From positions 1-43,983 of the IMG/VR virus record IMGVR_UViG_3300017707_001045: DNA of 43,983 bases. One strand, written 5' to 3'. Made by a program: the position numbers and the translations under genes. Below the pieces are notes generated by a model. The model was given only the letters and a program-made list of their open reading frames with translations. It had not been told where the DNA came from and did no database searches. The DNA comes from a virus. Lineage: Duplodnaviria; Caudoviricetes. Below, in pieces: positions 10,190 to 22,512 of the stretch. Position 1 is the stretch's first letter; the number at the start of each line of letters is the position of its first letter.

Positions 10190-10262
10190 GGCCTTATCGT
10201 CTAATGTAAGACTCCTGGTTATGGGCCAGGGAATGCGGGTTCGAGTCCCGCGACGGCCTCCA
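10190..10262 (+). tRNA. tRNA-like gene, anticodon AUG (nominally His), encoded CCA; atypical or degenerate
   Basis: D arm gtct/agac; anticodon stem cctgg/ccagg with loop ttATGgg; T arm gcggg-TTCGAGT-cccgc; acceptor ggcctta/gacggcc (2 mismatches); U73-CCA. Confidence 0.7.
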
Positions 10263-10266
10263 ATTT

Positions 10267-10438
10267 ACCAACTTATTAACCCCTGAGCTGCCAAGTGGCT
10301 CGTCCCACGGCTGAGCGCAAGGTCGATAAGTTGGTCTCTTTCCGCTAATCACTCGGACCATATTTGTGTCATCCGAGTAATCTTCGGCAGAGGAAGATTA
10401 GCGGTTAAATCCCTGGGGATGTGGTTACTGATCCAGGG
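10267..10438 (+). ncRNA. Candidate structured RNA(s) directly 3' of the tRNA
   Basis: Helices accaacttat/ataagttggt (10 bp), ccgctaatc/gattagcgg (9 bp), actcgga/tccgagt (7 bp), ccctgg/ccaggg; no credible ORF. Confidence 0.5.
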
Positions 10439-10471
10439 TGAATTTACGGTGAACTAAACCAAGACAAGAAC

Positions 10472-14949: not shown

Positions 14950-15591
14950 ATGTTACCTAAACCCTATTATCAAGACGACGCGGTGACGCTATACCACGGC
15001 GATTGCAGAGAGATCGTCCCGCACCTGGGGAGGTTTGATTTGCTGCTGACAGATCCGCCGTATGGGATTGGTGCGGATAACCAAAAGCGAATCCTGAGCC
15101 GATCAAACGCAGCCAGCGCGAAGGATTACGGCGCATCAAACTGGGATTCAGAGAGGCCAGCTCCATGGATCCTGCAGATGGCGATATCCGCATGCAAGGA
15201 GTCGATTATCTGGGGCGGCAACTACTTCGACTTTCCGCCGTGCGCTGGGCCTCTGGTATGGGACAAGGAAAACTCCGGTGACTTCGCCGACGGGGAGCTT
15301 GCATGGAACAATCTTGGATCAGCCCTAAGGATCAAGCGGCACATGTGGAATGGCATGCTTCGCAAGGGAGGCGAGGATCGATCCCACCCCACCCAGAAGC
15401 CTCTAGATGTGATTGCCTGGTGTATAACCCTGGCAAGCGATCCAAAAACCATCCTAGACCCATTCGCAGGCTCAGGAACCACAGGCCGCGCAGCCAAAGA
15501 CCTAGGCCGCAAGTGCGTCATGATCGAGCGAGAGGAGAAGTATTGTGAGATTGCAGCTAAGAGGATGGCTCAGGAAGTTTTAGCCCTATGA
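14950..15591 (+). CDS. Orphan DNA N6-adenine/N4-cytosine methyltransferase, beta class
   Basis: Motif IV TDPPY precedes HPTQKP and motif I DPFAGSGTT. Confidence 0.93.
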   Translation: MLPKPYYQDDAVTLYHGDCREIVPHLGRFDLLLTDPPYGIGADNQKRILSRSNAASAKDYGASNWDSERPAPWILQMAISACKESIIWGGNYFDFPPCAGPLVWDKENSGDFADGELAWNNLGSALRIKRHMWNGMLRKGGEDRSHPTQKPLDVIAWCITLASDPKTILDPFAGSGTTGRAAKDLGRKCVMIEREEKYCEIAAKRMAQEVLAL

Positions 15592-16073
15592 TCACCATGG
15601 ACCCCCTAACAGACATCCCCCCTAGCCTGGACTCGGAGAACTTCCGGATTGCATGGGCTGAGTGGGTAGAGTTTAGGATGTCTTTAAAGAAAGTTAAGAG
15701 ATGGGACCTAATGTTTAAGAAACAGCTCGAATGGCTGTCATCAATGCCCATACCTACGGCTATCGCTATAATCGATCAGAGCATCCGCCAGGGGTGGCAG
15801 GGGCTATTTGAGATCAAAACGCCTCCTAGGCCATACCATGGCTCAAATCAGGGCCTTCCTACGTGCCTTCAATCTAATCCTATCGAGGAAAGAACCTCAA
15901 AGTTTACCAAGATGAAGGAACTGGAGCTAGTGGAAGCTCAGCTCAAGGAAATCAGGGGTCGAGCCTCTGAGAGTGCCCTAGAAACCATCTTTGAGCCTCA
16001 GGACATAGAGCCTAGGAGACTGCTGATTGCTAGGAAGAAGCAACTGAAGGCTGAGCTGGGGTATACGAAGTAG
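15588..16073 (+). CDS. Replication-initiator (replisome organiser) C-terminal-like domain with no N-terminal HTH
   Basis: AWAEWVEFRMSLKK...QLEWL...AIAIIDQSIRQGWQGLF resembles the C-terminal domain of phage O-like initiators; only ~15 aa precede it. Confidence 0.55.
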   Translation: MITMDPLTDIPPSLDSENFRIAWAEWVEFRMSLKKVKRWDLMFKKQLEWLSSMPIPTAIAIIDQSIRQGWQGLFEIKTPPRPYHGSNQGLPTCLQSNPIEERTSKFTKMKELELVEAQLKEIRGRASESALETIFEPQDIEPRRLLIARKKQLKAELGYTK

Positions 16074-16154
16074 GTATATATACCTGAGCAGACGCCTGTT
16101 TTTAGGCTAAAACACAATGAAAACCCCAATGATTGTTAACCCTATATACCTGAG
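16072..16154. repeat. 14-bp palindrome plus 12-bp direct repeat (operator/iteron-like)
   Basis: aggtatatatacct at 16072-16085; tatatacctgag at 16077-16088 and 16143-16154. Confidence 0.6.
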
Positions 16155-16355
16155 ATGAGTGCCGCAATCCCACAAACAGTAACAATTAAACTGTCATTTG
16201 AGTTCGACGTTGAATCCTATGGAGTCACAAGCGACGAGGCTATTGAAAGAGTATCAAGGAGATACGACTTTTCAGCCAGAGAGCTGAGCGACGTTGTGGA
16301 GTTGATTAACTCCAAGGGATTCACCCCAAAGCTAGAGATATTTGTAGATTCTTAG
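16155..16355 (+). CDS. Hypothetical protein
   Basis: ORF track. Confidence 0.55.
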   Translation: MSAAIPQTVTIKLSFEFDVESYGVTSDEAIERVSRRYDFSARELSDVVELINSKGFTPKLEIFVDS

Positions 16356-16394
16356 TAAGACGTTGTTGACATCTTAGGAAGACGGTATTACGGT
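16350..16394 (+). promoter_or_regulatory. sigma70-type promoter flanked by paired operator-like repeats
   Basis: TTGACA(16366)-N17-TACGGT(16389); tcttagtaagacg at 16350 and tcttaggaagacg at 16372, 22 bp apart. Confidence 0.7.
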
Positions 16395-16400
16395 CAGATT

Positions 16401-16771
16401 GTTGGTGGCAGCCTTAGAAACTGCATGGCGGATTCGGATGACTTTATTCTCGCTCGTGGTCTAACGACCGGCTTAATCCCGAATCCCCAAGCTTTCTAAG
16501 ACGAGCGAGACTCTTTCTCGCGCTATCAACCGCGTAAGACACATAACTCAAGTGGGCGATGTGATCCGAAGGGGTGGCGGCACCTGTGGCGGACCGGGGT
16601 GCCTTAATGATGCTAGTGGAAGAAGGTTCTATGGCCTGCGAAAAGAAGGCCAGGTGTAGGCAAGACAGACCACCGCACCAGGAACTGGAAAACCGTGTGA
16701 AAGGGATCCCAAGTTTCTCAAAAGAAACGATCTCCAAATGCATGGTTCCCCTCTAAGTAGGGGGACCATGC
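16401..16771 (+). ncRNA. Candidate large structured ncRNA (~370 nt) with predicted pseudoknots
   Basis: Starts at the predicted TSS; many complementary segments; closed by a 13-bp hairpin at 16740-16771; largest gene-free gap in a densely coded genome. Confidence 0.6.
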
Positions 16772-16821
16772 TCAGAAGAAACCCAGTTAACTCAAAGAAA
16801 CTATCCTCCAAAAGAACAACA

Positions 16822-17346
16822 ATGAGAATAATACCAATAAAGTACAAAAACACAACCAAGCGGGTCATTGTGGATGATGATGTTTTTGAAAGTATTAAGG
16901 CTTTCAACATTACATTTCACAACAAGGGGTATGCATCAGTTTATTTCACCTGCGCTTCAACTGGGAAAAAGCATCACATTTTACTTCATCGACTAATAAC
17001 CGGAGCCAACGAAGGAGAATCCGTTGATCACAAGTCTGGATATGGACTCGATAATAGAAGGCGAAATTTGAGGGTGTGTAACGCATCACAAAACATGTCC
17101 AATCGATCCAAGTTAGCAAACTGGAAGCATTCTAAATATAAAGGAGTTACCAAACTGCGCGGAAAATGGGCTTCTGGAATAAAGGTTCCAAGCCCCATGG
17201 GATTTGGTCCTGGAAAGCAAAAGCATCTAGGTCTTTTTAGCTCCGAGATCGAGGCCCATGAAGCTTACATAAAAGCGGCAATTGAACTTCAAGGAAAGTT
17301 CGCTCGATGCGGAACTAGAGAAGAGTCCTTTGTTCCCATGCACTAA
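16822..17346 (+). CDS. HNH homing endonuclease with C-terminal AP2 domain
   Basis: LHRLI...VDHKSGYGLDNRRRNLRVCNASQNMSN; SKYKGV...KW...HLGLFSSEIEAHEAY...GKFA. Confidence 0.92.
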   Translation: MRIIPIKYKNTTKRVIVDDDVFESIKAFNITFHNKGYASVYFTCASTGKKHHILLHRLITGANEGESVDHKSGYGLDNRRRNLRVCNASQNMSNRSKLANWKHSKYKGVTKLRGKWASGIKVPSPMGFGPGKQKHLGLFSSEIEAHEAYIKAAIELQGKFARCGTREESFVPMH

Positions 17347-17371
17347 CCCCCCTCCAAACAATCTTAAAGAG

Positions 17372-17557
17372 ATGAAGACAAAATGGAAATGGGTCGCATG
17401 CTGGTGGGATGAAGACGGCAAATGCTGGGTGCCTGGAGATCATATCAAGATGGCAAAACAGCATTGCAGGGACTTTATCGAAGATCAGAGGCTTGATGGA
17501 TGCAGTGCTAACTGGATGATTTGCAAGGTCACACTAGAAAAAGGAGAAGAGGTCTAA
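17372..17557 (+). CDS. Hypothetical Trp-rich protein
   Basis: ORF track; start adjusted to ATG 17372. Confidence 0.55.
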   Translation: MKTKWKWVACWWDEDGKCWVPGDHIKMAKQHCRDFIEDQRLDGCSANWMICKVTLEKGEEV

Positions 17558-21615: not shown

Positions 21616-22048
21616 TGAATTGAGACCGTGTCACAGATGTGGGCAGCAGCCAATGGGCTATGTTCACGACAACTCAACGTCGGATAATTGCACCGAGTTT
21701 TACCGAATATCCTGTAAGTGCGGAATGGGATACAGCAGCGCAGATTTCTGGAACTGGATTCCTGTTGTTGGATATAAGCGAGACCCTGAATTGCCAACCA
21801 AGAATGCAATTAAGGTCTGGAACACCCGCCCCATCGAAGACGACCTCCGCGCCAAACTCGCCACAGCGGTGGAGGCGTTGGAGGTGATTGCTAAGAAATC
21901 AGCATGCCCTTGCTGGATTGTTCCAGGAATGGGCAGCGGCAAGGATTACAAATGGAAAGGCTGTGAACCGCACCTAAGCGATGATCCGGAGGAATGGTGC
22001 ATTTGTTGTCAGGCGCATGAGGCTTTAGCCAAGATCCGCTCTACTTAA
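21608..22048 (+). CDS. Lar-like Zn-finger protein with a Cys-rich C-terminus
   Basis: ELRPCHRCG...ISCKCG...AIKVWNTRP. Confidence 0.6.
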   Translation: MSDELRPCHRCGQQPMGYVHDNSTSDNCTEFYRISCKCGMGYSSADFWNWIPVVGYKRDPELPTKNAIKVWNTRPIEDDLRAKLATAVEALEVIAKKSACPCWIVPGMGSGKDYKWKGCEPHLSDDPEEWCICCQAHEALAKIRST

Positions 22049-22415
22049 TCTCAATCGTATACGTGCCCTGGAATGTGCCACGTAAAGCTATAGGCGCTCC
22101 AGGTGCCACGTATGCGGGTAAGGTAAGGACATTGGATGGAACACTCTCATTGCCCCATACGTTGATGGCTCTTACAACTAGGTTGTAGTTGCCGGGGACC
22201 ATGTTGGTAATCGTGTAATTCTGATTTGTTGTGGTAGCCACTAGGTTGGTGATAGGTCCACCGTCTAGGCCAGAATAGATGTTATACTTGAGAAGCCTGA
22301 CATGCTCGATAAGCGTGGCATTGGGAGGTTCCCAGACTAGGAGGATGTTTGCTGATTGAGCACTAGATGAGAGGGCTAGGGAGAAGAGTAGAACTAGGAG
22401 AGATTTAAGTTTCAT
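22041..22415 (-). CDS. Secreted single fibronectin type III domain protein
   Basis: Signal peptide MKLKSLLVLLFSLALSSSAQS|A; LVWEPP...YNIY...YTITNMVPGNYNLVVRAINVWGNESVPSN. Confidence 0.8.
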   Translation of the reverse strand: MKLKSLLVLLFSLALSSSAQSANILLVWEPPNATLIEHVRLLKYNIYSGLDGGPITNLVATTTNQNYTITNMVPGNYNLVVRAINVWGNESVPSNVLTLPAYVAPGAPIALRGTFQGTYTIEIK

Positions 22416-22512
22416 GCGGTTAAGCCTATAGCAACCCCCGGCCTATAGCAATGTTAGTACGTACTAACAAGTATAGGTTGACCTATATTTTAGACTATGC
22501 TAGGGGTTTGCC
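22416..22512. promoter_or_regulatory. Divergent control region with palindromes and a direct repeat
   Basis: gcctatagcaa twice (22424, 22441); perfect 18-bp palindrome tgttagtacgtactaaca (22452-22469); tataggt-tg-acctata (22472-22487) overlapping a TTGACC. Confidence 0.6.

What the first reader, a model, noticed from the sequence alone, without database searches (positions are those of the whole stretch)
16350..16771. Promoter-driven ~370-nt non-coding RNA candidate with two predicted pseudoknots
Seen: a TTGACA-N17-TACGGT promoter points into the largest ORF-free stretch of a densely packed genome. One continuous 18-nt strand (16493-16510, tttctaag-acgagcgaga) is perfectly complementary to two separate upstream segments. 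The first is cttagaaa (16413-16420), in the loop of gcag/ctgc. The second is tctcgctcgt (16448-16457), in the loop closed by ggattcgg/ccgaatcc (16430-16437/16479-16486), beside a ggtc-TAAC-gacc hairpin. A competing hairpin gcgaga/tctcgc (16505-16521) could disrupt the 10-bp pairing, which looks switch-like. Further helices follow (ggcacc/ggtgcc, tggcct/aggcca, gtttc/gaaac inside gatc/gatc), and a 13-bp hairpin closes the region at 16740-16771. I cannot match it to group I/II introns, HEARO/omegaRNA, GOLLD, ROOL, tmRNA or RNase P from memory. Inference: an undescribed large phage ncRNA.
Basis: partly seen in the sequence, partly recalled or inferred. Interest (0 to 1): 0.85.

Follow-up and report, generated by a model that had tools for sequence, protein, structure and literature searches.

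The report
Folded leader guarding a phage nuclease
In an uncultured phage, the non-coding stretch between a promoter-like site and a selfish DNA-cutting (HNH homing-endonuclease) gene holds a predicted tightly folded 130-base RNA domain and a hairpin predicted to bury the gene's ribosome landing site, so it is likely a control leader that keeps the nuclease low rather than a new large stand-alone RNA.

Summary
The helices are real. Three Watson-Crick stems of 8 bp or more lie in 16400-16525; none of 500 shuffles reached three. The promoter is the genome's only TTGAC-type/TAnnnT site, and its 66-nt surround is identical in a related phage contig. But strong structure is confined to two parts: a 130-nt domain starting at the predicted +1 (16401-16530, z -4.9) and the terminal hairpin. 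The middle 209 nt folds no better than shuffles (z -0.8). 'Pseudoknot 1' is an ordinary nested helix in the minimum-energy fold; the 10-bp pairing is a real competing helix. The relative replaces 16412-17348 (leader plus nuclease) with 674 other bases. No Rfam match and no homologue were found, so covariation and expression are untested. Best reading (about 0.5): an unusually long regulatory leader of a homing-endonuclease cassette, with an uncatalogued, possibly switching 5' domain. A stand-alone RNA remains possible (about 0.3).

The parts
16351..16384 (+). Two 12-nt direct repeats (16351-62, 16373-84; 11 of 12 alike, 22 bp apart) flanking the -35 box; possible operator sites (inferred)
   Evidence: family D9; one search finds the motif only here; identical in the related contig
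16366..16394 (+). Sigma-70-type promoter candidate, TTGACA-N17-TACGGT; predicted +1 near 16401
   Evidence: only such site in the genome; 16346-16411 identical in the X2 contig, while its neighbouring rep gene differs at 47 letters; +1 is inferred from spacing
16401..16530 (+). Domain 1: three-way junction closed by 16401-09:16522-30, with a long arm (16413-37:16479-500, 21 bp, 41-nt loop) and a short hairpin (16505-10:16516-21)
   Evidence: z -4.94; pair probabilities 0.95-0.99
16448..16510 (+). Competing 10-bp helix 16448-57:16501-10 (pseudoknot or switch); excludes the short hairpin
   Evidence: duplex -16.7 kcal/mol, the strongest single helix of the domain
16444..16452 (+). Loop segment complementary (8 WC + 1 G-U) to 16823-31, the second HNH start codon and the bases after it; overlaps the 10-bp partner site
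   Evidence: pair I1; weak significance (p about 0.02-0.05, post hoc)
16425..16499 (+). 24-codon upstream ORF running along the long arm, without a Shine-Dalgarno site; may be chance
16531..16739 (+). Middle part with several short hairpins, not more stable than shuffles
   Evidence: z -0.80
16740..16771 (+). 13-bp hairpin whose loop and 3' arm carry a Shine-Dalgarno-like site (16754-61) and the AUG at 16768-70, in frame with the HNH gene
   Evidence: -23.6 kcal/mol, most stable of 11 long hairpins in the genome (next -23.1); anti-SD duplex -8.7 kcal/mol, exceeded by 6 of 62 other starts; 16760-70 predicted fully paired; the public gene call P0013 starts here
16768..17346 (+). HNH-AP2 homing-endonuclease-type gene; second possible start at 16822 (no SD site, A-rich leader), where the two closest homologues begin
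   Evidence: phrog_99 E 1e-29; HNH_3; family profile hits AP2 domains and the HNH homing endonuclease 1u3e; P0014 49% and P0143 47% identical
17349..17376 (+). Right boundary of the exchanged block; leader and start of the next small ORF
   Evidence: 28 nt with 2 differences in the X2 contig

Best explanation
The stretch is most likely the long 5' leader of a free-standing HNH-AP2 homing-endonuclease cassette that sits just behind a conserved promoter-like site, and it likely works by keeping nuclease translation low while transcription would run on into the downstream genes. Shown in the sequence: promoter-like site, a 130-nt folded domain, a 13-bp hairpin containing a Shine-Dalgarno-like site and an in-frame AUG, the nuclease gene, and exchange of the whole block in a relative. 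Inferred steps: (1) transcription starts near 16401 and reads through, as no terminator-like site was found; (2) the hairpin folds at once and blocks initiation at 16768, as in T-even homing-endonuclease genes; (3) leak-through comes from the SD-less AUG at 16822 or from transcripts that lack the hairpin's 5' arm; (4) least certain, domain 1 has two states: with the short hairpin formed its big loop is free and could pair with the 16822 start (off), and with the 10-bp pseudoknot formed that loop segment is occupied (on).
For: Hairpin buries a strong SD-like site and an in-frame AUG; the public gene call begins there. Gene is HNH plus AP2. T-even homing endonucleases are controlled by RBS-sequestering hairpins and are often inserted in intergenic regions holding promoters (PMC2988022, passages and section 12). 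HNH-AP2 genes are a described class of phage homing endonucleases linked to allele exchange (PMC10448857, passages). One related contig keeps 16346-16411 unchanged and 17349-17376 almost unchanged, with 674 other letters between, and matches flanking genes in the same order. Among related HNH-AP2 loci, 14 of 54 have a folded region at the start (z at most -2) against 1 of 36 control genes (Mann-Whitney p 0.049). No terminator-like site after the hairpin. Loop complement to the 16822 start: 0.8% of genome windows have an equal match.
Against: No homologue of the leader was found, so nothing is shown by covariation. The leader (about 370-420 nt) is far longer than T-even hairpins, and the model gives the middle 209 nt no role. 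The two closest HNH homologues start at the residue matching 16822, not 16768, so the buried AUG may not be the natural start. No internal late promoter that would free the site was identified. The loop-to-start pairing is weak: 2 of 63 starts have an 8-base match, its energy is not among the best 10, and the test was post hoc. The exchange evidence is one contig, laid at 80% likeness, with only 28 nt on the right side; its inner 674 letters could not be read and might hold a diverged copy of the same RNA. The HNH-locus test used 54 of 80 loci, mononucleotide shuffles and mostly coding controls.
Confidence: 0.5

Rival explanations
1. A stand-alone non-coding RNA (the 130-nt domain 1, or the whole ~370 nt) is made from the promoter and released by processing; the nuclease gene is a passenger with its own hairpin. 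The double-pseudoknot fold would be its working structure.
For: The closing helix begins exactly at the predicted +1. The promoter is the best in the genome and is conserved. No Rfam match.
Against: Middle part z -0.80. No terminator-like site. Not found in 49 records related by capsid or replication protein. Replaced by sequence under 80% alike in a close relative whose promoter is unchanged, which is not expected of a conserved ornate RNA.
Confidence: 0.3
2. The helices are partly chance or DNA-level features (inverted repeats left by recombination, a decayed gene, or part of a replication origin after the rep gene); only the promoter and the SD hairpin matter.
For: The reverse strand folds as well (z -4.72), so folding energy does not choose a strand. 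Several coding windows reach z near -3 to -3.5. No conservation found.
Against: 0 of 500 shuffles reach the stem count. The fold starts at the predicted +1, and its closing helix uses G-U pairs that work on the + strand; the closing helix is largely lost in the reverse-strand fold. Internal ORFs have no homologues.
Confidence: 0.13
3. Leader plus HNH gene are a diverged self-splicing intron or a ribozyme-containing element, with the nuclease in a loop.
For: RNA followed by an HNH gene, exchanged as a block. One P7-like pairing with a bulged A, 16507-13:17323-28, was the only such candidate in 16401-17376. The two conserved flanks can pair.
Against: RF00028 finds nothing at E up to 10. No interrupted gene. 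No room for a P9 domain before the right flank (sequence). The P7-region duplex ranks 153 of 967 and the flank duplex 213 of 983 genome windows. No group II start or domain V words and no HDV-like descriptor match in the region.
Confidence: 0.07

Closest known systems
RBS-sequestering hairpins of T-even homing-endonuclease genes (I-TevI, I-TevII, I-TevIII, segB, Aeh1 mobE; PMC2988022)
   Same: A very stable hairpin buries the Shine-Dalgarno site and start of a homing-endonuclease gene that lies on a longer transcript; free-standing gene in an intergenic region with a promoter.
   Different: No nested late promoter identified; a further ~340 nt of leader with a 130-nt three-way-junction domain lies in front; a second, SD-less start exists; the phage is a 44-kb virus with an SU10-type capsid protein, not T4-like.
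HNH-AP2 (IPA-HNH) homing endonucleases at boundaries of genetic exchange (PMC10448857)
   Same: N-terminal HNH and C-terminal AP2 domain; lies in a block that differs between close relatives.
   Different: The passages read describe no structured leader; nuclease activity and target are untested here.
HEARO / omegaRNA (RF02033)
   Same: About 350 nt of folded sequence directly before an HNH-containing ORF.
   Different: No model match; the protein is a 174-192 aa HNH-AP2, not IscB/IsrB (the IscB domain layout is recalled; the HEARO-IsrB link is in PMC12286853).
int-alpA motif (RF02996)
   Same: Earlier notes of this scan describe it as a three-way junction with a pseudoknot whose relatives precede nuclease genes (unchecked).
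   Different: 71-position model, no match in this genome at E up to 10; its published description could not be read.
GOLLD, ROOL, OLE, raiA large RNAs (PMC12286853, PMC5737381)
   Same: Phage-borne (GOLLD, ROOL), pseudoknotted, function unclear.
   Different: No Rfam match; only about 160 of 370 nt is significantly structured; not found in related phages.

Membership tests
T-even-type homing-endonuclease translational hairpin | Downstream gene is a homing endonuclease | tested here: met
   HNH plus AP2 by profile; activity not tested
T-even-type homing-endonuclease translational hairpin | Stable hairpin buries SD site and in-frame start | tested here: met
   by prediction; which start is used is open
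T-even-type homing-endonuclease translational hairpin | Nested late or middle promoter that omits the 5' arm | tested here: inconclusive
   no sigma-70-type site there; the phage's late promoter motif is unknown
T-even-type homing-endonuclease translational hairpin | Measured repression of translation | not testable with these tools
   needs reporter or toeprint assays
HEARO / omegaRNA | Match to RF02033 | tested here: not met
HEARO / omegaRNA | Followed by IscB/IsrB | tested here: not met
   protein is HNH-AP2
Group I intron | Match to RF00028 | tested here: not met
   (the model rang over its cut-off in 2 of 14 control genomes); it may miss diverged subgroups
Group I intron | P3-P7 core, P9 and terminal G, interrupted host gene | tested here: not met
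   one P7-like pairing, not significant; no P9, no interrupted gene
Group II intron | Conserved 5' end and catalytic domain V | tested here: not met
   no Rfam match; recalled consensus words absent in 16390-16830
RNase P RNA | Match to RF00010 or other Rfam RNase P models | tested here: not met
   (control: over cut-off in 8 of 14 genomes)
tmRNA | tRNA-like domain and tag ORF | tested here: not met
   ARAGORN and Rfam negative
HDV-like / theta ribozymes | Nested double pseudoknot with P1, P1.1, P2, P3, P4 | tested here: not met
   own descriptor built from recalled consensus: 6 loose hits elsewhere in the genome, none in the region
int-alpA (RF02996) | Match to the covariance model | tested here: not met
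GOLLD / ROOL / OLE / raiA | Match to the Rfam models | tested here: not met
   all 4227 families scanned
Conserved structured RNA of any class | Compensatory changes among homologues | not testable with these tools
   no homologue retrieved; the relative's inner sequence could not be read

The most novel reading that the evidence does not exclude
Domain 1 is an uncatalogued two-state pseudoknot switch: one 10-base strand chooses between a local hairpin and the big loop, and so decides whether that loop pairs over 370 bases with the nuclease start codon. It would be either a long-range RNA lock on a selfish nuclease or, if released, the core of a new class of phage RNA.
Probability: 0.2. Interest if true: 0.7.

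Novelty: new variant of a known kind. Interest (0 to 1): 0.42.

Why it matters
Selfish nucleases must be throttled or they harm their host phage; the known brakes are simple hairpins in T-even phages. If the reading holds, this cassette adds a much longer leader with an uncatalogued folded domain to that hairpin, in an unrelated phage group, and gives a concrete testable model of two-layer control. If domain 1 is instead released as its own RNA, it is a new phage RNA without a family. At present it rests on one genome and one partly readable relative, so its weight is moderate.

Tried and rejected
Homologue searches, all negative: blastn of 16340-16800 against annotated phages and plasmids at E 1. 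Exact short patterns in viral contigs gave 2 and 4 matches; the two I read lay in unrelated sequence, and nhmmer found nothing significant in the fetched loci. The promoter pattern found 0 in viral contigs, 0 in genome contigs and only the window's own contig (L043) in metagenomes. Rep-protein loci (35, about 31-49% identity), capsid loci (80, 53-60%) and HNH loci (80, 33-44%) hold no similar RNA by nhmmer or BLAST. A single-sequence covariance model of domain 1 matched 0 of 49 other records, 0 of 80 HNH loci, 0 of 50 HNH-bearing records and no second copy in the genome; such a model is weak for remote relatives, and the middle part was searched by sequence only. The 66-aa upstream ORF and the rep alignment found no loci. 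No RNA holder listed among sequencing runs; this is no evidence on expression. Rejected ideas: long-range pairing of the two conserved flanks and a P7-like pairing (unremarkable ranks); a diverged tandem duplication between 16404-16495 and 16573-16657, which beat shuffles but not neighbouring genome windows (86 of 1091 score as high) and does not keep the helices; coding by the 99-aa minus-strand and 60-aa plus-strand ORFs; short resemblances to RNase P, omegaRNA, 5S and pistol RNAs that I recalled from memory, none backed by Rfam. Literature: 7 searches listed no description of this RNA. An exact 12-nt motif was absent from 4 of 6 supplementary files of PMC10690425; its alignment archives and the supplement of PMC5737381 could not be read and may hold a related motif.

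Full report
Setting. The window is a whole phage record of 43,983 bases with a 123-nt terminal repeat. Nearly all genes lie on the + strand; it has an SU10-type major capsid protein, a terminase and tail proteins. The best sequencing-run holder is a freshwater metagenome that may be the source of this DNA, so it is not independent. The candidate lies after a lambda-O-like replication protein (15588-16073) and a 66-aa ORF, and before an HNH endonuclease gene and a long run of small genes.

Observation. Every helix listed for the 5' part is present at the stated coordinates; the terminal hairpin is 13 bp with one G-U. Three Watson-Crick stems of at least 8 bp in 16400-16525 were reached by 0 of 500 shuffles and by 3 of 3655 genome windows, two of them this domain. 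The whole stretch 16390-16780 gives z -2.82, but the signal is uneven: 16401-16530 gives z -4.94, 16531-16739 gives z -0.80. In a rough genome scan the domain ranked 12th of 675 windows; with more shuffles it was second of 17 re-scored windows. The reverse strand folds almost as well in energy (z -4.72), so energy alone does not fix the strand. The promoter is the only TTGAC.-N16-18-TAnnnT site on either strand, although its -10 box is too weak for the consensus scanner. The closing helix of domain 1 begins at 16401, seven bases after the -10 box, where transcription would be expected to start (inference).

Pseudoknots. In the minimum-energy fold, 16413-20:16493-500 is the base of one long nested arm (probability about 0.95), so it is a pseudoknot only if the 4-bp gcag/ctgc stem forms. 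The 10-bp helix is the strongest single duplex of the domain (-16.7 kcal/mol), but as a nested alternative it costs 11 kcal/mol (-40.2 against -51.6). It cannot coexist with the short hairpin 16505-21. With a rigid 21-bp arm it would need a zero-length linker, so it requires the arm to bend at its 2-bp middle (inference).

The terminal hairpin is the most stable of 11 long hairpins in the genome (-23.6 kcal/mol; the next is -23.1). Its loop and 3' arm hold a Shine-Dalgarno-like site (16754-61) and an AUG at 16768 in frame with the nuclease. The site's pairing with a recalled anti-SD motif (-8.7 kcal/mol) is exceeded by 6 of 62 other hand-picked starts, and 16760-70 is predicted fully paired. 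The public gene call P0013 begins at this AUG. The two closest homologues, P0014 (49%) and P0143 (47%), begin at the residue matching a second AUG at 16822, which has no SD site, so the true start is open. The protein is HNH plus AP2. [quoted passage not shown] HNH-AP2 genes are a described class of phage homing endonucleases (PMC10448857; passages read). No terminator-like site follows the hairpin. Among 80 related HNH-AP2 loci, 54 could be scored after dropping short, duplicate and start-less ones; 14 had z at most -2 around the start, against 1 of 36 control genes (p 0.049). The controls are mostly coding and the loci are not independent, so this is modest support.

The one close relative. 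A 2568-nt contig in run X2 matches the rep gene (47 other letters, 27 gap positions), then 16346-16411 without a difference, then has 674 other letters, then 17349-17376 with 2 differences, then two further downstream pieces in order. So the promoter, its two direct repeats and the first 11 transcribed bases are conserved, while 16412-17348, the rest of the leader plus the nuclease, is exchanged or under 80% alike. This fits a mobile or fast-changing cassette behind a phage promoter. It is one contig, the right side is only 28 nt, and the 674 letters could not be read; they could hold a diverged copy of domain 1.

Possible switch. The big loop of domain 1 (16444-52) is complementary to 16823-31, the second start codon and the bases after it, and overlaps the site used by the 10-bp helix. 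This suggests an off state (short hairpin formed, loop on the start codon) and an on state (10-bp helix formed). Support is weak: 0.8% of genome windows and 2 of 63 starts have an equal 8-base match, shuffles give p 0.02 for the loop and 0.05 for the whole leader, the duplex energy is not among the best 10 of 63, and the test was post hoc. A 24-codon ORF without an SD site runs along the arm and may be chance.

Comparison with known families. Rfam gives only a tRNA in the window at gathering level and nothing in the candidate at E up to 10. Direct searches with int-alpA, group I intron, HEARO and RNase P models were negative; ARAGORN finds no tmRNA. My own HDV-like descriptor and group I/II motif checks, built from recalled consensus, were negative apart from one P7-like pairing that is not significant. 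The ORFs inside the stretch have no homologues. Seven literature searches listed no description of this RNA. I read passages of PMC12286853, PMC5737381 and PMC10690425, the abstract of PMC11855218, and only the search listing of PMC10879173. Unreadable supplements of PMC5737381 and PMC10690425 may hold related motifs.

Homologues. None found. Covariation, the decisive test, was therefore not run.

Earlier notes of this scan report folded leaders of about 50-150 nt before phage HNH genes in other genomes. They moved my reading towards the leader model and prompted the int-alpA test. They are unchecked notes and are not counted as support; no look-alike stretch of this sequence was on record.

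Verdict. A real folded 130-nt domain and a real start-burying hairpin, most likely parts of the leader of a homing-endonuclease cassette (0.5). Rivals: stand-alone RNA (0.3), chance or DNA-level repeats (0.13), diverged intron or ribozyme (0.07). It works like the T-even hairpins; the 5' domain belongs to no catalogued family that I could test. New variant of a known kind; interest 0.42.

Noticed in passing
window 10190-10262 (+): A tRNA gene read by ARAGORN as His with anticodon AUG. An A at the wobble position is unusual for a bacterial His tRNA (recalled).
   Followed up: no
window 10262-10471 (+): Intergenic stretch right after the tRNA folds as strongly as domain 1 (z -3.3 over 216 nt; z -4.84 for 10260-10389): two multi-helix domains with 9-11-bp closing stems. 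No Rfam match at E up to 10, no blastn match in annotated phages, no HDV-like descriptor hit. A second candidate structured RNA.
   Followed up: partly
window 16073-16088 and 16143-16154: A 12-nt direct repeat 66 bp apart (D6) right after the rep gene; the first copy lies in a 14-bp AT-rich palindrome. Possible replication-origin or protein-binding sites.
   Followed up: no
window 22049-22512: The 464-nt gap in + strand genes holds a rare minus-strand gene (22041-22415, tail-fibre-like profile hits), a short direct repeat and a palindrome before gene 22513; possible late control region.
   Followed up: no
window 16732, 16806, 17352: The same 7-mer recurs before the hairpin, before the second HNH start and before the next gene's start (3 of 7 + strand copies in the genome).
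   Followed up: partly
window 16471-16478 and the start of gene 18849: The other side of the big loop has an 8-base complement near the start of gene 18849, the only other of 63 starts with such a match; not significant alone.
   Followed up: partly
L133 8227-8303 (-), record G004: A capsid-related phage carries a CyVA-1 RNA motif just above its Rfam cut-off.
   Followed up: no
L199 1330-1465, L234, L235: Several unrelated HNH-AP2 genes have their own promoter-like site and a folded leader of about 100-200 nt, unlike this one in sequence.
   Followed up: partly
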